From positions 41,641 through 105,640 of the forward strand of contig JAGOQI010000001.1 of NCBI GenBank assembly GCA_017991515.1: a stretch of DNA of 64,000 nucleotides. The letters run 5' to 3'. Source of the stretch: Minisyncoccota bacterium. GTDB lineage: Bacteria > Patescibacteriota > Minisyncoccia > Phycocordibacterales > UBA9973. Positions 1 through 35,226 of this stretch are shown in pieces. Position numbers and translations under genes: made by a program. The notes under the pieces were generated by a model that saw nothing but the letters and a program-made list of their open reading frames with translations, did not search any database and was not told the DNA's origin. Position 1 is the stretch's first letter. Each line of letters begins with the position of its first letter.

Positions 1-606
1 GCAGCTCTTGGTGCCGGTGTTGCTATTAATGAAGCTCGTGGACACATGATTATCGATAGTGGAGGAGGGACAACAGATATCGCTGTTATATCACTCGGTG
101 GTGTTGTGGCTTCAACTTCTGTTAAATGTGCAGGAAATAAAATAGATAAAGCCATCGTTGAATATTTGAAAAAGACACATAACTTATCAATAGGAGATCA
201 AACAGCAGAAGAAACAAAGAAAAATTTATGTTCAGCTATGGCTGTTTCTCCTGATATGAAAGCTGATATAAAGGGTCGTGATAGCATCACCGGGCTACCA
301 AAAACAGTAACCGTCTCAACTAATGAACTTGTAAAAGCAATAGATCAAGAATTAAAAACAATAATTCGCGCTATTAAAGATGTACTCCAGCAAACTCCTC
401 CAGAACTTGCTTCAGATATTATTGATCACGGTATTGTTATGACTGGAGGAACAAGCCAGCTAGCTCATTTTGGAGACTTAGTAGCCAAACAAACAGGAGT
501 CTCAGTGAGAGTAGCTGACGAATCTCTGTACTGTGTAGTAAATGGCACAGGGGTACTTCTTGCTCACCTTGGGGATTATCAGAGATCTATTTTATCTAAA
601 AGATAA
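1..606 (+). CDS. mreB: Rod-shape determining actin-like protein MreB (5'-partial, continues upstream of window)
   Basis: Frame from nt 1 reads AALGAGVAINEARGHMIIDSGGGTTDIAVISLGGVV..., the MreB/actin ATPase phosphate-2 region; ends TAA at 604-606 overlapping the next ATG. Confidence 0.8.
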   Translation, partial: AALGAGVAINEARGHMIIDSGGGTTDIAVISLGGVVASTSVKCAGNKIDKAIVEYLKKTHNLSIGDQTAEETKKNLCSAMAVSPDMKADIKGRDSITGLPKTVTVSTNELVKAIDQELKTIIRAIKDVLQQTPPELASDIIDHGIVMTGGTSQLAHFGDLVAKQTGVSVRVADESLYCVVNGTGVLLAHLGDYQRSILSKR

Positions 607-1214
607 TGTTTAAAACATTACAAAGTTTTTCTCCTCAAAGAGTTTTCTTGGTTCAGGGAAATATAGAAACTTTTAATACATTAGTAGAAGACACTTTAGT
701 TCAAATTTCTGAATTGGAAAGTCAATCACTTTCTAGGTTTACCATGGAAGACGCGCAGAGAGTAGTTGAATTTAATTTAGAAAGAAAGTCTGGCTCTTGG
801 TGTATTGTTTATTTTGATGTTTTTGTTCCTGAAGCAGCGCAAGTGTTACTCAAAACACTAGAGGAACCTAGAGAAAATATTTATATAATTTTTGTTACCC
901 CTAGACCATATCTGATACCACAAACTATTCGCTCGAGAGTTAGACTTATTCCAAATATTATTTCAAACAAAGAACCAAAATACCTATCCTCAAAACAATC
1001 TCTTCTCGAATATGTAAAAGAAACTTTTGGAGATGATAGTGTAGATGCATCTGTTAGAAGAGCTAAGGCCACTACTTTATTTGATTCGCTTGAGCATTAT
1101 GTTCAAAAAGACAGCGAAAAGTTAAAAGTGGTTTATGAAGCAAAAGATATGCTATTTAAGGCTAATATGCCGACTAAACAAGTAGTGGAGTTCTTAGTAA
1201 CTATGCTCTATTGA
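606..1214 (+). CDS. holB: DNA polymerase III delta'-like clamp-loader subunit (short form)
   Basis: Motifs LLKTLEEP and TIRSRV match the delta'/AAA+ clamp-loader sensor region; 1-nt overlap with mreB stop; TGA stop. Confidence 0.5.
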   Translation: MFKTLQSFSPQRVFLVQGNIETFNTLVEDTLVQISELESQSLSRFTMEDAQRVVEFNLERKSGSWCIVYFDVFVPEAAQVLLKTLEEPRENIYIIFVTPRPYLIPQTIRSRVRLIPNIISNKEPKYLSSKQSLLEYVKETFGDDSVDASVRRAKATTLFDSLEHYVQKDSEKLKVVYEAKDMLFKANMPTKQVVEFLVTMLY

Positions 1215-1314
1215 GTTATCCACAGGTCACTATTGCTTTATTATTACCAATAATCTATATTATCTGAACTGGTCACCTTGAAATGTTTACATGGATTGGT
1301 GACCGGTACACAAC

Positions 1315-1336
1315 ATCCCCGCAAGGGGATTTTGTG
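1315..1336 (+). terminator. Hairpin ATCCCC-GCAA-GGGGAT with GNRA loop followed by TTTTG; likely terminator of mreB-holB unit
   Basis: Perfect 6-bp GC-rich stem with GCAA tetraloop then T-run, read directly. Confidence 0.4.
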
Positions 1337-1407
1337 CTTCTGGGTAAATGTTTGATTGACTGCGCAGGACAGAGAGGATAAAGTGTAAGAAACAAAACTT
1401 AAAGTTT

Positions 1408-1563
1408 ATGAAAAAAATATTATTTTTTGTATTTTTCTTATCCTTATTATCCTTGGCGGGTATATATGGAGGAAGAGATAGTGAAAGTAATGAAATAAAA
1501 AAAGTAGAAAAGGATTCTACTTTTTTACAAAAAAACGGAGGAATTCCTTCTTTAAATTTTTAA
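1408..1563 (+). CDS. Small secreted/lipo-like peptide (51 aa, N-terminal signal-peptide-like hydrophobic segment)
   Basis: ATG 1408..TAA 1563 gives MKKILFFVFFLSLLSLAGIYGGRDSESNEIKK...; below ORF-track size cutoff; preceded by TTGACT-N17-TAAAGT promoter-like sequence at 1353-1381 and followed by terminator. Confidence 0.3.
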   Translation: MKKILFFVFFLSLLSLAGIYGGRDSESNEIKKVEKDSTFLQKNGGIPSLNF

Positions 1564-1582
1564 ACAAAAACAAATTTAAAAA

Positions 1583-1617
1583 GCCGTTCAGTAATACTGA
1601 ACGGCTTTTATTTTTTT
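1583..1617. terminator. Bidirectional rho-independent terminator (GCCGTTCAG-taata-CTGAACGGC) flanked by A-run and T-run
   Basis: 9-bp perfect stem, T-run 1606-1617, A-run upstream; sits between + small ORF and - strand gene end. Confidence 0.6.
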
Positions 1618-1622
1618 AAACT

Positions 1623-2018
1623 TTAATACCTTTCTGTTTTTAGATATTCACCATTATTAGAATAATAAATATTTTTATTTTCTCCCCAATCACCAAATTC
1701 GTAAATCTCCCAACACCCATAATGTATTTCTTTTTCTTTAAAATACCTTGAGTAAGAAAAACCTATATAACAAAGAAGTTTAATATTTTGTTCTTCAAAT
1801 AAACTAAAATTAAATTCTGAATGAGGTATTTCTATTTCTTCCACAATAACGGTCACATCCTTGCTGAACCAATTTTGAGAAGAAAGAAGAGTTTCAATTT
1901 TTTGTCTACAAATTTCAATATCTTTTTCTTTAAGATATTTCATGTTGGCTTCGGCAGGAATAGAAAATTTTTCTATAATACCTTTAGAAAGTATTTTGAA
2001 TGTTTTTATTTTTTTCAT
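1623..2018 (-). CDS. Hypothetical protein (131 aa), first gene of divergent pair A
   Basis: Intact ORF; start sits beside the conserved promoter block; SD-like AAGGTGA upstream on minus strand. Confidence 0.5.
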   Translation of the reverse strand: MKKIKTFKILSKGIIEKFSIPAEANMKYLKEKDIEICRQKIETLLSSQNWFSKDVTVIVEEIEIPHSEFNFSLFEEQNIKLLCYIGFSYSRYFKEKEIHYGCWEIYEFGDWGENKNIYYSNNGEYLKTERY

Positions 2019-2033
2019 TTGTTAAGTTTTTTT

Positions 2034-2065
2034 TCACCTTACAACCATCTCTTGACTTTGTCAAA
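2034..2065. promoter_or_regulatory. Conserved bidirectional promoter/operator block copy A: TCACCTTACAACC-N5-CTTGACTTTGTCAAA (palindrome TTGACTTTGTCAA at 2052..2064)
   Basis: Near-identical block recurs at 3156..3187. On the + strand it reads TTGACT-N17-TAGAGT; on the - strand it reads TTGACA-N17-TAAGGT. Confidence 0.45.
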
Positions 2066-2115
2066 TAGAGAGGGTAGAGTACTAAAAAATTCATTCTTAA
2101 CTAAAGCAAAATAAT

Positions 2116-2649
2116 ATGAAAGTACTTACAGTAAAACCTGTTCAAAAGATTGAAAATCTAGAAGATTTCTTCAAGTCCAGGTCTTCCAAAAAAACTGAAC
2201 TCAATAATGAGATCCAAGAGCTTATAATTAAGCTAAAAAAAGAAGCTAAGAAACACGAGGAGATACTTCTCTATTCTCTGCAATTAGATGAAATAATTAC
2301 TTTTTTAGGGAAACAATTACGGGAAAATTTTTATAGTAACTTTGTTTATCCAGAAACTGGACTTTTCCTCAGACAAATTGATTTTGTTCACAGAGAATAC
2401 ATTGGTGATTTAGGTCTTAAGTACTGGAACAATGTTTTAATACTGTTTAAGTTTAATGACGAAAGATTCAATGGCGAAATGTCGTTGTCGTCACTTGGTT
2501 TTAATGACGAAAAATTAAGAATCACAGAACAGGTTGTTGGTCTTGGCTTCGACCCTTCATTCGCAGATAAAGATAAGTACCTTTTAGTAAAAACTCTTTT
2601 AAAAGAGGTGAGGAGCACTATTACAAAGGCTGGTGGTATGAGTAATTAG
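2116..2649 (+). CDS. Hypothetical protein (177 aa), second gene of divergent pair A
   Basis: Intact ORF downstream of conserved promoter block; no recognisable family. Confidence 0.5.
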   Translation: MKVLTVKPVQKIENLEDFFKSRSSKKTELNNEIQELIIKLKKEAKKHEEILLYSLQLDEIITFLGKQLRENFYSNFVYPETGLFLRQIDFVHREYIGDLGLKYWNNVLILFKFNDERFNGEMSLSSLGFNDEKLRITEQVVGLGFDPSFADKDKYLLVKTLLKEVRSTITKAGGMSN

Positions 2650-2660
2650 TAAACAATTTT

Positions 2661-2696
2661 AGCAGGCGACCAATAGGTTTCCTGCTTTTTTCTTTT
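2661..2696 (+). terminator. Rho-independent terminator (AGCAGG...CCTGCT + T10)
   Basis: 6-bp stem, 14-nt loop, long T-run directly after 2116..2649 stop. Confidence 0.45.
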
Positions 2697-2753
2697 GTAT
2701 TACAAATAGTATTAGTTTGCTCCGAACTTGGGATGATGTTCGAATAGAAATAA

Positions 2754-2776
2754 ATAAAAAACCGCCTAAAAGGCGG
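2754..2776 (-). terminator. Rho-independent terminator on minus strand (ACCGCC-taaaa-GGCGGT with T-run on minus strand)
   Basis: Reverse-complement reads GACCGCCTTTTAGGCGGTTTTTTAT just past the stop of 2798..3139. Confidence 0.55.
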
Positions 2777-2797
2777 TCATGAGATACTTAAAACTTT

Positions 2798-3139
2798 TTA
2801 ACATTCTTCATATGATACTTCTTTTCCAGTAATTAAACCCATTACACAAGCATCGTTGCCTCCTCCATAGTACAGATAAAGATTGTTTCCTGCCCATTTA
2901 TAATCTTGAATAGTTTCGCCAGGCATTTTGAAATTTTCTCCTGTATAAAATGGTCCATATAAAATTTCTTTACTGTTGTCCCACACTAAGACATTCTTCC
3001 AATTACGGTTTTCATCGAATGTTTTTATTAAGTAAAGGTTTTCAGTAAGTGGTTCATTTACCATGTTAAATAAGTAGTAAACTATTTTTTTCTGAAGTTC
3101 TGTAAGTTTAAGATATAAACTTCTGTCTTTGATTTGCAT
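2798..3139 (-). CDS. Hypothetical protein (113 aa, Tyr/Gly-rich C-terminal half), first gene of divergent pair B
   Basis: Intact ORF; start beside conserved promoter block copy B; SD-like AGGTGAGGG. Confidence 0.5.
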   Translation of the reverse strand: MQIKDRSLYLKLTELQKKIVYYLFNMVNEPLTENLYLIKTFDENRNWKNVLVWDNSKEILYGPFYTGENFKMPGETIQDYKWAGNNLYLYYGGGNDACVMGLITGKEVSYEEC

Positions 3140-3155
3140 AATTTTAAAGTTTCCC

Positions 3156-3187
3156 TCACCTTACAACCTAACCTTGACTTTGTCAAA
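3156..3187. promoter_or_regulatory. Conserved bidirectional promoter/operator block copy B (palindrome TTGACTTTGTCAA at 3174..3186)
   Basis: TCACCTTACAACC-N5-CTTGACTTTGTCAAA, same spacing as copy A. Confidence 0.45.
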
Positions 3188-3216
3188 CAAATAAGTAAAA
3201 TGAAGAAAAAAATAAA

Positions 3217-3549
3217 ATGACAGAGAAAACGAGGTTATTTATTCCTGTAGAAGAAAATTTTGAAATTCTTGATAAGATTCTATTATTTTGTCTAAAACAT
3301 GATTTTGAATCTAATTTTTATCCTAAGTACTCTGAGGAATTTAAAAAAGAAGAAAGGATGCATCAGCTAAAAGAAAACTTTAAAAATCAAAAATACTTAG
3401 TAATTGATTTTACAAAAGATGGGATAAAAGGGGAAGATAAACATGTTTATTTTTATAGAATAAAAAAGAAATATTTTGAACCAGAAGAATTAGAAATAAG
3501 AGTAGAAGATATCAGAAAAATCAAAAAATGGATCAAAGAGAAAAAATAA
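3217..3549 (+). CDS. Hypothetical Lys/Glu-rich protein (110 aa), second gene of divergent pair B
   Basis: Intact ORF after conserved block; terminator follows. Confidence 0.5.
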   Translation: MTEKTRLFIPVEENFEILDKILLFCLKHDFESNFYPKYSEEFKKEERMHQLKENFKNQKYLVIDFTKDGIKGEDKHVYFYRIKKKYFEPEELEIRVEDIRKIKKWIKEKK

Positions 3550-3556
3550 TTTAAAA

Positions 3557-3586
3557 GCCACACTTAAACAGTGTGGCTTTTTTCTT
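3557..3586 (+). terminator. Rho-independent terminator (GCCACAC-ttaaaca-GTGTGGC + T8)
   Basis: 7-bp perfect stem plus T-run read directly. Confidence 0.6.
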
Positions 3587-3604
3587 TGTGTTATAATCTC
3601 ACCT

Positions 3605-4141
3605 ATGTACAACTTAGATTTGTTTAAAAAAGAGGCGAGTGGAACGCAAGAATGGCTTTCCAAAGAATATAGCCAAATACACACAGGACGAGCAAATCCT
3701 GCACTTTTGGATGGTGTTCATGTAGAGAGTTATGGCGCTACACAGCCACTTAAAAATACTGCTTCTATATCTATTGAAGACCCTAAAACTTTGAGAGTTA
3801 TTCCTTGGGATAAAGGCTTGAATAAAGACATTGAAAGAGCTCTTCACGAAGCAAATCTTGGTTTTTCTATAGCACTGGACGATGCAGGGGTAAGAGTTAT
3901 TATCCCGGCTCTTACTACAGAGACTCGTACCAGACTTGTAAAAATAGCAAAAGAGCGAATGGAAGACGCGCGTATCGCTATTCGTAAAGCTCGCGAGAGT
4001 ATGCTTTCTGATTTGAAAGAACAGTCACTACCCGAAGATACTTTTATAAGAGCAAAAGAAGAAGTTCAAAAGTTGGTTGATAATGCTAATGCAAACCTCG
4101 AAGCTTTATTTGAAAAGAAGGAAGCTGAGATCTTAAACTAA
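3605..4141 (+). CDS. frr: Ribosome recycling factor
   Basis: 178 aa; RRF-like throughout (…RANPALLDGVHVESYGATQPLKNTASISIEDPKTL…RTRLVKIAKERMEDARIAIRKAR…). Confidence 0.85.
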   Translation: MYNLDLFKKEASGTQEWLSKEYSQIHTGRANPALLDGVHVESYGATQPLKNTASISIEDPKTLRVIPWDKGLNKDIERALHEANLGFSIALDDAGVRVIIPALTTETRTRLVKIAKERMEDARIAIRKARESMLSDLKEQSLPEDTFIRAKEEVQKLVDNANANLEALFEKKEAEILN

Positions 4142-5284: not shown

Positions 5285-6325
5285 ATGGCAGTTATAAGCT
5301 TCAAACCAAAACAAGTCACCAAAAGATTGCTTAGCACTCTTCAAGACAGAGCACACGACATTATCCTAAATAGATATGGTCTTGGAGACGACGCTGATTC
5401 AAAAACTCTTGAAGCTATCGGTAAAAAATACGGTATAACCCGAGAGCGAGTAAGACAAATAGAAAATGCTGCATTAGCTGCTATTCGAAAAAGTGAAACT
5501 TTTAAATCTGAACATAAAACATTTTCTGAACTTAAAGATCTTGTAGAGAGTATGGGTACTCTTGTTCATGAAGAAGATTTTCTTTCTGCTGTAGCGAAAG
5601 ATGCTATTACTCAAAACCATATTCATTTCTATTTAGTTCTAGGTGATGAATTTAAAAAATTAAAAGAAGATGAACACTTCAAGTCAAGATGGACAATAGA
5701 TGAGACTTTGTCTGATGTTGTTCATGACGCACTTCATGATGTTTATAAAAACCTAAGTGATAAAGATCTCCTTTCTGAAAATGATTTAGTTTTGCGTTTT
5801 ATCGATGAACTTAAAGATGTTTCTGAACAATATAAAAATGAAGAGATCGCAAAGCGATGGTTATCTATTTCAAAGAAAATAGCAAAAAATCCACTAGGTG
5901 AGTGGGGTCCTTCTGATTCTCAAAATGTAAAAACTCGAGGTATCAAAGACTTTGCTTATTTAATGATGAAAAAACATGGTTCACCTATGCACTTCCGTGA
6001 AGTAGCTAAAGCTATTGTGGATACTTTTGGACGCAAAACTCATGTTGCAACTACTCACAATGAACTTATCAAAGACCCTCGTTTCGTTTTGGTAGGTCGT
6101 GGATACTACGCACTTCAAGAATGGGGCTACAAACCAGGTGTTGTAAAAGATGTTATCGCTGAAATTCTTATCAAAGAAGGTCCTCTTACAAAAGAAGATA
6201 TAGTTGATCGAGTTCTAAAAGAAAGATTCTTAAAGAAAAATACTATTTTGGTAAATCTACAAAACCCAGATCATTTCAAGAAAATGGAAGACGGTCGTTA
6301 TACTGTAGTAAGTAAGAAGAAATAA
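5285..6325 (+). CDS. Sigma-70 region-4-like HTH fused to a HARE-HTH (RNAP delta N-terminal-like) domain protein
   Basis: LEAIGKKYGITRERVRQIENAALAAIRK resembles sigma region 4.2; C-terminal MHFREVAKAIVDTFGRK…ELIKDPRFVLVGRGYYALQEWGY resembles HARE-HTH. Confidence 0.4.
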   Translation: MAVISFKPKQVTKRLLSTLQDRAHDIILNRYGLGDDADSKTLEAIGKKYGITRERVRQIENAALAAIRKSETFKSEHKTFSELKDLVESMGTLVHEEDFLSAVAKDAITQNHIHFYLVLGDEFKKLKEDEHFKSRWTIDETLSDVVHDALHDVYKNLSDKDLLSENDLVLRFIDELKDVSEQYKNEEIAKRWLSISKKIAKNPLGEWGPSDSQNVKTRGIKDFAYLMMKKHGSPMHFREVAKAIVDTFGRKTHVATTHNELIKDPRFVLVGRGYYALQEWGYKPGVVKDVIAEILIKEGPLTKEDIVDRVLKERFLKKNTILVNLQNPDHFKKMEDGRYTVVSKKK

Positions 6326-34703: not shown

Positions 34704-34719
34704 TTTGAGACTATAAAGA

Positions 34720-34748
34720 TTGACAAAAGGGTATAAATATGCTATTAT
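34720..34748 (+). promoter_or_regulatory. Near-consensus sigma-70 promoter TTGACA-N17-TATTAT
   Basis: Read directly; gives a roughly 65-nt leader before ATG 34822. Confidence 0.5.
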
Positions 34749-34821
34749 ATGGATATAGTTCTTTGAATGTTTTAGTTGGTTTTCCAGAGTTTCTGAAGGG
34801 GGTTTTGGTAAATCAACTAAA

Positions 34822-35226
34822 ATGCAAAATAAAATAATAAATTTAGGAATGCTAAACGCAAGACTCGGTTCAGCAATATTTAAGAATATAGAAAAATTAA
34901 TTCAATTATTTAAATTCACTGAGGATGTAAGAACCTATCAGTTCAGCCACGAAGAAGCTTCTACACATCTTCAGCGTATTTTTACTAATTATAATGGAGG
35001 TCTATTAATTGAACCATCATTCTTAAATGAAGAAAATTACCTCGCAATAAGAGAAGGAGTAGTTGTTGAAATCAGAGGAACTTGGTGTTCAAAATCAACT
35101 ATTATACGAGTTAATAAAACATCAACAGTAGAATCCGTTCTATACGATATTAACCCTTGTAATGGATTGGACAGTTACAGGATGTACCAACATTCACAAC
35201 CTTATCCTTCCTGGATAAAACATTGA
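34822..35226 (+). CDS. Hypothetical protein (134 aa)
   Basis: Intact ORF between strong promoter and strong terminator; no family recognised. Confidence 0.5.
   Translation: MQNKIINLGMLNARLGSAIFKNIEKLIQLFKFTEDVRTYQFSHEEASTHLQRIFTNYNGGLLIEPSFLNEENYLAIREGVVVEIRGTWCSKSTIIRVNKTSTVESVLYDINPCNGLDSYRMYQHSQPYPSWIKH

What the first reader, a model, noticed from the sequence alone, without database searches (positions are those of the whole stretch)
2034..3187. Duplicated compact bidirectional promoter/operator built on a perfect 13-bp palindrome, each driving a divergent pair of orphan genes
The 32-nt block TCACCTTACAACC-N5-CTTGACTTTGTCAAA occurs twice (2034..2065 and 3156..3187). Each copy sits in the about 80-100 bp gap between a minus-strand orphan gene (1623..2018; 2798..3139) and a plus-strand orphan gene (2116..2649; 3217..3549). 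The palindrome TTGACTTTGTCAA supplies a -35 hexamer on both strands (TTGACT on +, TTGACA on -). On the minus strand the conserved left part gives TTGACA-N17-TAAGGT followed by an AGGTGA Shine-Dalgarno. On the plus strand it gives TTGACT-N16/17-TAGAGT or TAAAAT. A perfect palindrome overlapping both -35 elements is also what a dimeric repressor site would look like. This would be a duplicated, co-regulated cassette of uncharacterised small proteins.
Basis: seen in the sequence. Interest (0 to 1): 0.7.

Follow-up and report, generated by a model that had tools for sequence, protein, structure and literature searches.

The report
Conserved two-way promoter framing swappable genes
The repeated 32-base block is the core of a roughly 70-base two-way promoter that recurs dozens of times in a group of ultra-small Patescibacteria, always at fast-changing islands of small unknown genes, so it offers a handle on how these reduced genomes express and exchange new genes.

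Summary
The block is real at 2034-2065 and 3156-3187, but its spacer is N4, not N5. The "perfect palindrome" is TTGAC-TTT-GTCAA, two abutting -35 hexamers on opposite strands. It is not a local duplication. The 22-nt core has 38 exact matches in 31 stretches from 19 MAG assemblies (about 0.07 expected), plus metagenome copies. The full element (A) is a mirror-symmetric module of about 70 nt: on each side -35, a 16-17-nt spacer, TAnnnT, a G-rich stretch and a conserved AAA, with start codons about 33 nt from the core. 54 of 55 copies keep TAnnnT on each side, even when the hexamer has diverged (background 7%). Arm covariation is absent. Cargo is hyperdiverse (73 of 94 singletons, about 93% without a Pfam family) yet under purifying selection. 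The two sides are not functional pairs: homologous cargo keeps its side while the partner differs. A second element (B, window 2717-2753) marks unit boundaries and is co-oriented with A in 17 of 17 loci. Homology breakpoints fall on A and B, and island content differs between strains that are 96% identical. Best reading: a conserved bidirectional sigma70-type promoter that, with B, frames exchangeable half-cassettes. Operator, Shine-Dalgarno and toxin-immunity ideas are unsupported. No transcript data exist.

The parts
2022..2089 (.). Module A, copy 1: the full ~68-nt bidirectional promoter module (core TTGACTTTGTCAA at 2052-2064)
   Evidence: Profile built from 39 copies in other genomes matches here with E=6e-18. 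Exact 32-nt block at 2034-2065.
2052..2080 (+). Rightward promoter P_R1: -35 TTGACT 2052-2057, 17-nt spacer, -10 TAGAGT 2075-2080. Predicted start about 2087. Drives g2.
   Evidence: Consensus scan. Same layout in 54 of 55 copies. Start position inferred from the conserved AAA 22-24 nt from the core edge.
2036..2064 (-). Leftward promoter P_L1: -35 TTGACA 2064-2059, 17-nt spacer, -10 TAAGGT 2041-2036. Predicted start about 2029. Drives g1.
   Evidence: The start is inferred.
3142..3208 (.). Module A, copy 2 (core 3174-3186). Its right arm has diverged but keeps a -10-like hexamer.
   Evidence: Profile match E=2.2e-15. Exact 32-nt block at 3156-3187.
3174..3201 (+). Rightward promoter P_R2: TTGACT, 16-nt spacer, TAAAAT. 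Drives g4 (ATG at 3217).
3158..3186 (-). Leftward promoter P_L2: TTGACA, 17-nt spacer, TAAGGT, then GAGGGAAAC. Drives g3 (ATG at 3139).
1623..2018 (-). g1, 131-aa cargo gene of unknown function
   Evidence: ORF. No family hit. One homologue at 59% identity, elsewhere and without the module.
2116..2649 (+). g2, 177-aa cargo gene: a PH/EVH1/PTB-like beta-sandwich with an extra N-terminal helix, member of a small family of ~175-aa proteins
2798..3139 (-). g3, 113-aa orphan cargo gene
   Evidence: ORF. Only a 99%-identical copy of itself among 5.8e9 proteins.
3217..3549 (+). g4, 110-aa orphan cargo gene
   Evidence: ORF. Only itself found.
2717..2753 (+). Element B: TTGCT-CCGAAC-TTGGGATGAT-GTTCG-AAT, a conserved boundary element between the convergent terminators of g2 and g3
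   Evidence: 47 pattern matches on both strands in the module-bearing loci plus the window, about 39 distinct oriented copies. Profile E=1e-11, the only significant copy in the window. Co-oriented with A in 17 of 17 loci. Homology between L007 and L031 starts at B.
1579..1609 (.). Bidirectional terminator-like hairpin at the left edge of the island (ends g1 and the 51-aa ORF)
2661..2692 (+). Terminator-like hairpin plus T-run after g2
   Evidence: Read from the sequence: AGCAGG...CCTGCTTTTTT.
2760..2778 (-). Terminator-like hairpin after g3
3553..3581 (.). Bidirectional terminator-like hairpin at the right edge of the island (after g4)
1355..1563 (+). Tentative: a degenerate right half-module (ATTGACT-17-TAAAGT-GTAAGAAAC, shares GAGAGGr-TArAGT with P_R) driving a 51-aa hydrophobic peptide ORF (1408-1563)
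   Evidence: Similarity judged by eye; not significant in the profile search.

Best explanation
Each copy is a member of a conserved, mirror-symmetric module of about 70 bp (A) made of two sigma70-type promoters placed back to back. Their -35 hexamers (TTGACT on +, TTGACA on -) are separated by a single base pair, and this alone creates the TTGAC-N3-GTCAA inverted repeat. On each side there follow a 16-17-bp spacer, a TAnnnT -10 (TAGAGT on the right, TAAGGT on the left), a 5-nt G-rich discriminator-like stretch and a conserved AAA where transcription is predicted to start. This gives an A/U-rich leader of about 10 nt with no Shine-Dalgarno, a small gene and an intrinsic terminator. Because the two -35 sites abut, the two polymerases probably compete (inferred). 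The module occurs several times per genome (at least 7 in one MAG) in a clade of Paceibacteria/Nomurabacteria-like Patescibacteria. It is confined to islands of small, mostly family-less genes that sit between housekeeping genes at conserved positions and turn over at strain level. Together with a second co-oriented element (B) at unit boundaries, A provides the conserved frame between which half-cassettes (B/terminator-gene-A or A-gene-terminator/B) are exchanged. The most likely route is homologous recombination using A and B as portable homology (inferred). Shown: the anatomy, conservation, distribution, cargo diversity and breakpoints. Inferred: transcription starts, polymerase competition and the recombination mechanism.
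For: Distribution: 38 exact matches of the 22-nt core in 31 stretches from 19 MAG assemblies (my calculation gives about 0.07 expected in 596 Gbp). There are 8 more metagenome contigs found with a pattern that left the core unspecified: all 8 carry the TTGAC/GTCAA arms and 7 of 8 have identical core and spacing. Promoter anatomy: the conservation profile is mirror-symmetric, with -35, spacer, TA..GT, G-rich stretch and AAA 22-24 nt from the core edge on both sides. TAnnnT at 16-18 nt occurs in 54 of 55 copies on each side, including 18 of 19 and 11 of 12 copies with non-consensus hexamers, against a 6.9% background. Start codons are mostly 32-35 nt from the core on both sides. Other promoters in the window use the same -35/-10 grammar. 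Selection: synonymous divergence between most carrier genomes is about 1, yet the core is invariant. Not base-pairing: no arm covariation and no consistent folding. Cargo: 73 of 94 are singletons, about 6 of 91 have any Pfam family, there are no defence or phage families apart from one HTH protein, and dN/dS is 0.10-0.19, like housekeeping genes. Exchange: homologous cargo is always on the same side (16 of 16) and the opposite partner is unrelated in 11 of 11 evaluable pairs. Homology blocks end at module edges and at B. L012 and L042 are 96-97% identical in flanking genes but have different island content. The window and L024 share the same site with different cargo. Copies within a genome are more alike at variable positions (63 vs 47.5%, 0 of 2000 permutations). 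A copies are co-oriented in every locus that has several, and B is co-oriented with A in 17 of 17 loci. Neighbouring large genes are housekeeping, and no recombinase appears among the 25 recurrent families listed. There are no viral or phage matches.
Against: There are no transcript 5' ends or expression data, so promoter activity and start sites are inferred from sequence grammar only. The -10 hexamers TAGAGT and TAAGGT are non-canonical for a 33% GC genome. Positions with no known promoter role are as invariant as the hexamers: TTACAACC in the left spacer, the C before the core and the centre T. Part of that invariance is imposed by my search pattern, and the rest may need an extra binding protein or continual gene conversion to explain it. 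Over the full 73 nt, pairwise identity (median 72% over the central 61 nt, ungapped) is not higher than that of coding DNA; only the central ~45 nt is exceptional. The strict co-orientation of a nearly symmetric promoter, and of B, is not required by a pure promoter function or by plain homologous recombination. The carrier genomes are fairly close relatives (about 78% nucleotide identity in housekeeping genes), so the family may be clade-restricted.
Confidence: 0.7

Rival explanations
1. Operator/regulon: the TTGAC-N3-GTCAA inverted repeat is the binding site of a dimeric transcription factor that blocks both -35 elements and co-regulates all module-driven genes. This is compatible with, and additional to, the promoter reading.
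For: The arms are invariant in all copies, including the 8 found without specifying the core. The centre T and flanking C are conserved beyond the hexamers. One module-adjacent gene encodes an XRE-type HTH protein (L020).
Against: The repeat is fully accounted for by two consensus -35 hexamers. Two related copies (L027) change GTCAA to GTAAA, which breaks the palindrome but still reads as a -35-like TTTACA. No regulator gene recurs near the modules: no protein family is present in more than 4 source genomes. Five-bp arms with a 3-bp centre are short for a specific dimer site.
Confidence: 0.25
2. Site-specific cassette system: B (and possibly A) is the target of a dedicated recombinase that inserts and excises promoter-carrying cassettes in one orientation, making it an integron-like platform of Patescibacteria.
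For: B sits at unit boundaries whatever the gene direction and is co-oriented in arrays (up to 6 in 8 kb), always in the same sense as A, in 17 of 17 loci. Homology between genomes starts at the first bases of B. Island content is replaced between 96%-identical strains. B has AAC...GTT-type inverted arms around an asymmetric conserved spacer.
Against: No integrase or recombinase family appears among the 25 recurrent families listed for the 150 neighbouring ORFs (the other 91 matching families were not shown), and no recurring island-linked protein was found. B (about 27-35 nt, 6-bp arms, 10-nt spacer) does not have attC architecture. Many breakpoints lie at A or at terminators rather than B. 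Concerted evolution of A fits homologous recombination.
Confidence: 0.2
3. Mobile or viral origin: the module is the end or internal repeat of a transposon, MITE or prophage (for example repeated early promoters of an integrated phage).
For: It is a multi-copy, highly conserved repeat next to small orphan genes with their own promoters and terminators. Contigs often break at it (L014, L016, L019, L024, L033).
Against: There are no matches in 2.9 million viral contigs for A or B or in 50,697 phage records. Cargo has no PHROG affiliation apart from one HTH protein. Neighbours are housekeeping genes. No terminal inverted repeats or target duplications flank the module. Copies lie between start codons at fixed distance.
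Confidence: 0.04
4. Structured nucleic acid: the pseudo-palindrome acts as an RNA hairpin or a DNA cruciform.
For: Copy 2 on the minus strand folds with z=-4.2. The module weakly matches its own reverse complement.
Against: The other three strand/copy folds have z of -0.7 to -1.3. The covariation score of 0.071 is matched by 60 of 500 shuffles and by the slid controls, and the extended arms pair in only 60% of cells. Most of the module would lie upstream of both predicted transcripts.
Confidence: 0.02

Closest known systems
Back-to-back divergent sigma70 promoters (the class described by Beck and Warren 1988; e.g. lambda PR/PRM, Tn10 tetA/tetR) - cited from my own knowledge
   Same: Two outward-facing -35/-10 promoters share one short intergenic region, predicted starts are about 60-70 bp apart, and mutual interference is possible.
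   Different: The known cases are single loci with operators for a linked regulator. Here the -35 hexamers abut (1 bp apart), no linked regulator was found, and the whole unit is a multi-copy family conserved across species with unrelated cargo.
Promoter-bearing intergenic repeats of viruses (halovirus HF2 class I/II repeats, PMC8707807; T4 early promoters, from my own knowledge)
   Same: A long, highly conserved promoter sequence is repeated many times in front of many small genes of unknown function.
   Different: Those are viral and unidirectional. Here the repeat is chromosomal, bidirectional, absent from viral collections and embedded among housekeeping genes.
Integron cassette arrays and attC clusters without integrase (CALINs) - from my own knowledge
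   Same: Arrays of small, mostly unknown, rapidly exchanged genes are separated by co-oriented short imperfect inverted repeats (B).
   Different: Integron cassettes are usually promoterless and depend on Pc. attC sites are 57-141 nt with R''/L''/L'/R' boxes and are recombined by IntI. Here cassettes carry their own conserved bidirectional promoter, B is about 30 nt with a different architecture, and no integrase was seen.
Positionally conserved hypervariable regions / flexible genomic islands of streamlined genomes (e.g. SAR11, PMC2217521)
   Same: Islands sit at fixed chromosomal positions, differ in gene content between close strains, and are thought to be exchanged by homologous recombination through conserved flanks.
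   Different: In those cases the flanks are housekeeping genes. Here dedicated short non-coding elements (A and B) inside the island act as the conserved frame, and one of them is also the promoter.
Symmetry-driven bidirectional promoters (Warman et al. 2021, Nature Microbiology) - from my own knowledge
   Same: Divergent transcription follows from the symmetry of promoter DNA.
   Different: There the symmetric element is the -10 region, with starts about 18 bp apart. Here the symmetry axis lies between two -35 hexamers and each side has its own -10.

Membership tests
sigma70-type promoter | -35 hexamer close to TTGACA | tested here: met
   TTGACT (+) and TTGACA (-) in both window copies and in 54-55 of 55 copies.
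sigma70-type promoter | -10 hexamer TAnnnT 16-18 bp downstream of the -35 | tested here: met
   54 of 55 on each side, retained in diverged arms (18 of 19 and 11 of 12), against a 6.9% background.
sigma70-type promoter | Transcription starts 6-8 nt downstream of the -10 | not testable with these tools
   No RNA data. Only indirect support: a conserved AAA at that position on both sides and start codons about 10 nt further on.
Bidirectional (back-to-back) promoter | Divergent genes on both sides at promoter-compatible distance | tested here: met
   Start codons on both sides, mostly 32-35 nt from the core, in nearly all of 48 copies.
Repressor operator / regulon | Inverted repeat conserved beyond what the promoter needs | tested here: inconclusive
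   The arms coincide exactly with the -35 hexamers. The centre T is conserved but so is much else. The L027 copies break the palindrome while keeping a -35-like hexamer.
Repressor operator / regulon | A cognate DNA-binding protein, often linked | tested here: not met
   No recurrent protein family near the modules. Only 1 of 91 flanking proteins is an HTH. Whole genomes were not searchable.
Integron / CALIN | IntI tyrosine recombinase adjacent to the array | tested here: not met
   Not among the 25 recurrent families listed for the 150 neighbouring ORFs (singleton families were not all displayed) and no recurring island protein.
Integron / CALIN | attC sites (57-141 nt, R''-L''...L'-R', RYYYAAC...GTTRRRY) | tested here: not met
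   B is about 27-35 nt: CCGAAC-N10-GTTCG. Only the AAC/GTT triplets agree, read from the sequence.
Integron / CALIN | Co-oriented recombination sites separating cassettes | tested here: met
   B elements are co-oriented within arrays and with A in 17 of 17 loci.
Transposon / MITE | Terminal inverted repeats, target-site duplication, transposase | tested here: not met
   None seen around the copies. The module lies between start codons, not as a discrete insertion.
Toxin-antitoxin or effector-immunity gene pair | Two genes co-inherited as a unit | tested here: not met
   Partners are unrelated whenever one side recurs, in 11 of 11 cases. There are no TA, defence or other families.
Structured RNA / cruciform | Compensatory base changes and stability above shuffles | tested here: not met
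   No Rfam match.
PH-like fold (g2 only) | Seven-stranded beta-sandwich capped by a C-terminal helix | tested here: met

The most novel reading that the evidence does not exclude
A and B are the two conserved sites of a previously undescribed gene-cassette exchange platform in Patescibacteria. Promoter-carrying half-cassettes of small orphan genes are inserted, swapped and lost between co-oriented A and B sites at fixed chromosomal hot spots. The mechanism would be either an unidentified site-specific recombinase or transformation-driven homologous recombination that uses these elements as built-in portable homology. Functionally this would be an analogue of integrons in which every cassette brings its own ready-made bidirectional promoter.
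Probability: 0.3. Interest if true: 0.85.

Novelty: new variant of a known kind. Interest (0 to 1): 0.62.

Why it matters
Almost nothing is known about promoters, regulation or gene flux in Patescibacteria/CPR, which make up a large share of bacterial diversity and are mostly uncultured. This module gives three things. First, a concrete and testable native promoter architecture (abutting -35 elements, TAGAGT/TAAGGT -10, G-rich discriminator, short SD-less leaders) that could serve as an expression tool now that some CPR are genetically tractable (PMC10633639). Second, a sequence tag that pinpoints the hypervariable accessory compartment of these reduced genomes. Its cargo consists of hundreds of family-less proteins that are nevertheless under purifying selection, which makes them prime candidates for host interaction or conflict functions. 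Third, a possible new way of organising gene exchange, through short dedicated non-coding frames (A and B) rather than integrases or flanking core genes. If the exchange is site-specific, it would be a new recombination platform.

Tried and rejected
- The literal N5 pattern gives 0 matches and was corrected to N4.
- Paralogy of g1/g3 and g2/g4 was rejected.
- Pfam, PHROGs, PADLOC and NCBIfam on the four proteins gave only sub-threshold noise, e.g. Cas2_IIIa at E=1.3e-4 over 40 residues and NYN at E=0.012.
- Homologue searches: g3 and g4 are orphans and g1 has one relative.
- I expected g1 and g2 homologues to carry the module upstream, but they do not.
- Viral and phage origin: no matches.
- Rfam, at gathering and at E<=1 thresholds: nothing relevant.
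- The RNA hairpin or cruciform idea was rejected by folding and covariation controls.
- The 13-mer alone with up to 2 mismatches is not enriched in the window (4 found, 4.7 expected), so there are no hidden diverged copies there. The profile search agrees.
- A search for an island-linked regulator or recombinase by clustering 403 ORFs found nothing present in more than 4 source genomes.
- Defence-island idea: PADLOC on 91 cargo proteins hit only the single HTH protein.
- Literature: the 13-mer string appears only in two unrelated papers, and no CPR promoter or cassette description was found.
- The afdb50 fold library was unavailable.
- One malformed structure string, one over-long fold request and one rejected literature query produced no data.
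Full report
**Source and setting**

The window is a 64-kb piece of a 66-kb metagenome-assembled contig (GCA_020049755.1, JAHZTO010000593.1). NCBI labels the organism a Candidatus Pacebacteria bacterium. GC content is about 33%. The finding lies in a 2-kb stretch between a holB-like gene (606-1214) and frr (3605-4141), surrounded by mreB, rseP and other housekeeping genes.

**Checking the observation**

- The pattern as written, with N5, has no match. With N4 it matches exactly at 2034-2065 and 3156-3187 and in none of 100 shuffles.
- Weaker similarity extends to 68 nt.
- There is no further copy in the window by pattern or profile search.
- The four ORFs are as stated and each transcription unit ends at a terminator-like hairpin.
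- The 13-mer is not a perfect palindrome. It is TTGAC-TTT-GTCAA, which is the first five bases of a -35 hexamer on each strand, with the two hexamers (TTGACT and TTGACA) one base pair apart.

**It is a dispersed family, not a local duplication**

- A scan of one genome per species (596 Gbp) with the 22 specified bases TTACAACC-N4-CTTGACTTTGTCAA returned 38 exact matches in 31 stretches from 19 assemblies. Nearly all are labelled Paceibacterota, Nomurabacteria, Patescibacteria or (in one large MAG series) Saccharibacteria. By my calculation chance predicts about 0.07.
- Two hits are on short contigs of MAGs labelled Pseudobdellovibrionaceae and Daejeonella. I take these to be binning contaminants.
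- A profile built from the copies found about ten more diverged copies in the same loci.
- A metagenome scan anchored only on the outer arms, with the core unspecified and the spacing free (23-29), gave 8 contigs. All 8 have the TTGAC/GTCAA arms, and 7 have identical core and spacing.
- Lower-bound copy numbers per MAG reach 7 and 6.
- Viral contigs and phage genomes have none.

**Anatomy of module A**

Aligned, the element is about 70 nt: CAT...aaaGTTTCCCTCACCTTACAACC-N4-CTTGACTTTGTCAA-ayrGrGAGGGTAGAGTAGGGGAAA...ATG.

- The conservation profile is mirror-symmetric. On each side there is a -35, a 17-nt spacer (16 nt on the right in 11 copies), a TA..GT hexamer (TAGAGT right, TAAGGT left), five mostly G residues, then AAA 22-24 nt from the core edge. 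The AAA is 91-98% conserved on the right, and its mirror TTT is 93-96% conserved on the left.
- That AAA is where a sigma70-type polymerase would start.
- Start codons lie mostly 32-35 nt from the core on both sides, so leaders would be about 10 nt long.

**The strongest test of the promoter reading**

- 54 of 55 copies keep TAnnnT 16-18 nt from the -35 on each side.
- This includes 18 of 19 right arms and 11 of 12 left arms whose hexamer differs from the consensus. Window copy 2, with TAAAAT at spacer 16, is one such case.
- The background frequency is 6.9%.
- Other consensus -35 promoters in the window use the same grammar with varied -10 hexamers.

**Base-pairing is not what is conserved**

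- The extended arms pair in only 60% of cells.
- The covariation score (0.071) is reached by 60 of 500 shuffles and by the slid controls.
- Folding z-scores are unremarkable except for one strand of one copy.
- There is no Rfam match.

- AGGTGA overlaps the -10 (TAAGGTGA), so it would not be transcribed from this promoter. It also lies 15-16 nt from the ATG.
- SD-like tetramers occur within 14 nt of the start of 0 of 94 cargo genes and only 3 of 41 large ORFs in the window. This organism seems not to rely on Shine-Dalgarno pairing.

**Cargo**

- The 94 genes directly flanking the copies have a median length of 110 aa, and 18 have a strongly hydrophobic segment.
- 73 are singletons within the set.
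- About 6 of 91 match any Pfam family: an XRE HTH, a free-standing RNAP alpha-CTD, an HD domain, SecG and a bestrophin-like protein.
- Apart from that one HTH protein, none matches defence or phage families.
- They are real genes. Cargo shared between genomes has dN/dS of 0.10-0.19, like housekeeping genes in the same loci (0.03-0.18).
- In the window, g3 and g4 are orphans among 5.8 billion proteins and g1 has one 59% relative.

**The two sides are not partners**

- g1/g3 and g2/g4 are not paralogues.
- Homologues of g2 (L045, L046) and g1 (L049) sit behind unrelated promoters.
- Whenever a cargo gene recurs next to a module in another genome, it is on the same side (16 of 16). The gene across the module is unrelated in all 11 evaluable pairs from non-identical loci.

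**A second element and island polarity**

- blastn of the loci against the window revealed a second recurrent sequence at window 2717-2753, between the convergent terminators of g2 and g3.
- Its consensus is tTGCT-CCGAAC-tTggGAcGAT-GTTCG-aAt.
- It is the only significant copy in the window and is absent from viral contigs.
- It shows no folding signal (z about 0), and its arms are invariant rather than covarying.
- B lies at boundaries between transcription units whatever the direction of the flanking genes. Arrays reach up to 6 copies in 8 kb.
- All A copies in a locus share one orientation, in every locus with two or more copies. B has the same orientation as A in 17 of 17 loci.
- Half-modules (one -35/-10/GGGAAA arm) occur directly downstream of some B copies. 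A degenerate right half may sit at window 1355-1392, driving a 51-aa hydrophobic peptide.

**Mosaic exchange**

Homology between genomes begins and ends at these elements.

| Loci compared | Shared block | Where homology ends |
|---|---|---|
| L007 / L030 | module + right gene + terminator (92%, 746 nt) | starts at the module's left edge |
| L007 / L030 | terminator + left gene + module | ends at the module's right edge |
| L007 / L031 | B + terminator + left gene + module | unrelated sequence outside |

- The window shares only the B and A frame with those loci and has a different gene in between.
- Islands are positionally conserved. L024 is syntenic with window 1-1348 at 78% and has a module right after holB with different cargo. 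Its contig breaks inside a B element downstream.
- L012, L032, L036 and L042 share housekeeping neighbours and a module site.
- L012 and L042 are 96-97% identical in the flanking genes, yet differ in left cargo, module variant (73%) and everything beyond. Turnover is therefore at strain level.
- Copies within a genome resemble each other more at the variable positions than copies from different genomes (63 vs 47.5%, 0 of 2000 permutations). This means concerted evolution or recent intragenomic spread.
- With synonymous divergence of about 1 between most carrier genomes, the invariance of the central ~45 nt requires selection, homogenisation or both.
- Neighbouring large ORFs are housekeeping genes (UvrD, KsgA, pyruvate kinase, PBPs, RNase J, YchF and others). 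No recombinase appears among the 25 recurrent families listed, and no protein family recurs in more than 4 source genomes.

**Interpretation**

- Shown: a conserved, symmetric double -35/-10 architecture at fixed distance from divergent start codons; multi-species and multi-copy distribution; hyperdiverse but selected cargo; independence of the two sides; co-oriented A and B; breakpoints at A and B; strain-level turnover.
- Inferred: that the module fires in both directions from the conserved AAA; that the abutting -35 sites make the two polymerases compete; that A and B act as portable homology for exchange of half-cassettes, plausibly by transformation, since natural competence is documented in cultivated Saccharibacteria (PMC10633639).
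- The operator idea remains possible as an add-on, but nothing requires it.
- A dedicated site-specific system is the most interesting reading that the evidence does not exclude. The strict co-orientation and the junction position of B favour it. The lack of any linked recombinase, the non-attC architecture of B and the concerted evolution of A count against it.

**Novelty**

I found no description of this motif or of such cassette-like islands in CPR in the searchable literature. The promoter itself is of a known kind. The packaging appears to be new: a multi-copy, cross-species bidirectional promoter module paired with a co-oriented boundary element, framing strain-variable orphan genes. I rate it a new variant of a known kind, with moderate to high interest.

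Noticed in passing
window 1216-1352 (+): A conserved non-coding stretch just downstream of the holB-like gene is 78% identical to L024 5068-5202. It folds well above shuffles (z=-4.4) into a closing stem plus two hairpins, with one compensatory and two wobble-compatible changes, and has no Rfam match. It is a candidate small ncRNA.
   Followed up: partly
window 3585-3607 and genome-wide: frr has TGTTATAAT ending about 7 nt before its ATG, which suggests a leaderless mRNA. SD-like tetramers precede only 3 of 41 large ORFs, so this organism seems largely SD-independent.
   Followed up: partly
window 34718-34822: A promoter-like region (TTGACA-17-TATTAT) and the sequence downstream are 72-78% conserved with L013 (two places) and L042. 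Its nature is unknown.
   Followed up: no
L049 about 660-1290: On the contig that carries the g1 homologue, a tRNA gene appears to be interrupted by an insert of about 600 nt encoding a 110-aa Cys/His-rich (HNH-like) ORF. This is consistent with the group I introns reported in Patescibacteria tRNA genes (PMC13011429).
   Followed up: no
window 2694-2715; L007, L010, L025, L027, L043 upstream of B: Further conserved intergenic blocks accompany B. One is GTATTAC-N4-AGTATTA(C), directly upstream of B in the window, L024, L031 and L042. Another is a block of about 45 nt, AGGTATCAAAAATAACCATTACAAAATAAGCTTCAAAAAAGT, that looks like a conserved leftward promoter and leader.
   Followed up: partly
L012 7165-7214 vs L042 6620-6643 and 7400-7449: Relative to its 96%-identical relative L012, L042 carries an extra 219-aa gene inserted after a housekeeping gene. 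The insertion is flanked by a duplicated 50-nt copy of that gene's 3' end and terminator lead-in.
   Followed up: no
one module-adjacent gene among L006-L036 (locus not identified): One module-adjacent gene encodes a free-standing RNA polymerase alpha C-terminal domain (Pfam E=1.7e-17). This is curious next to a promoter whose upstream-element region is occupied by the opposing promoter.
   Followed up: no
window 5285-6325: A 346-aa protein combines sigma70 region 4 with a HARE-HTH domain and has no other sigma regions. It is an unusual architecture close to the island.
   Followed up: no
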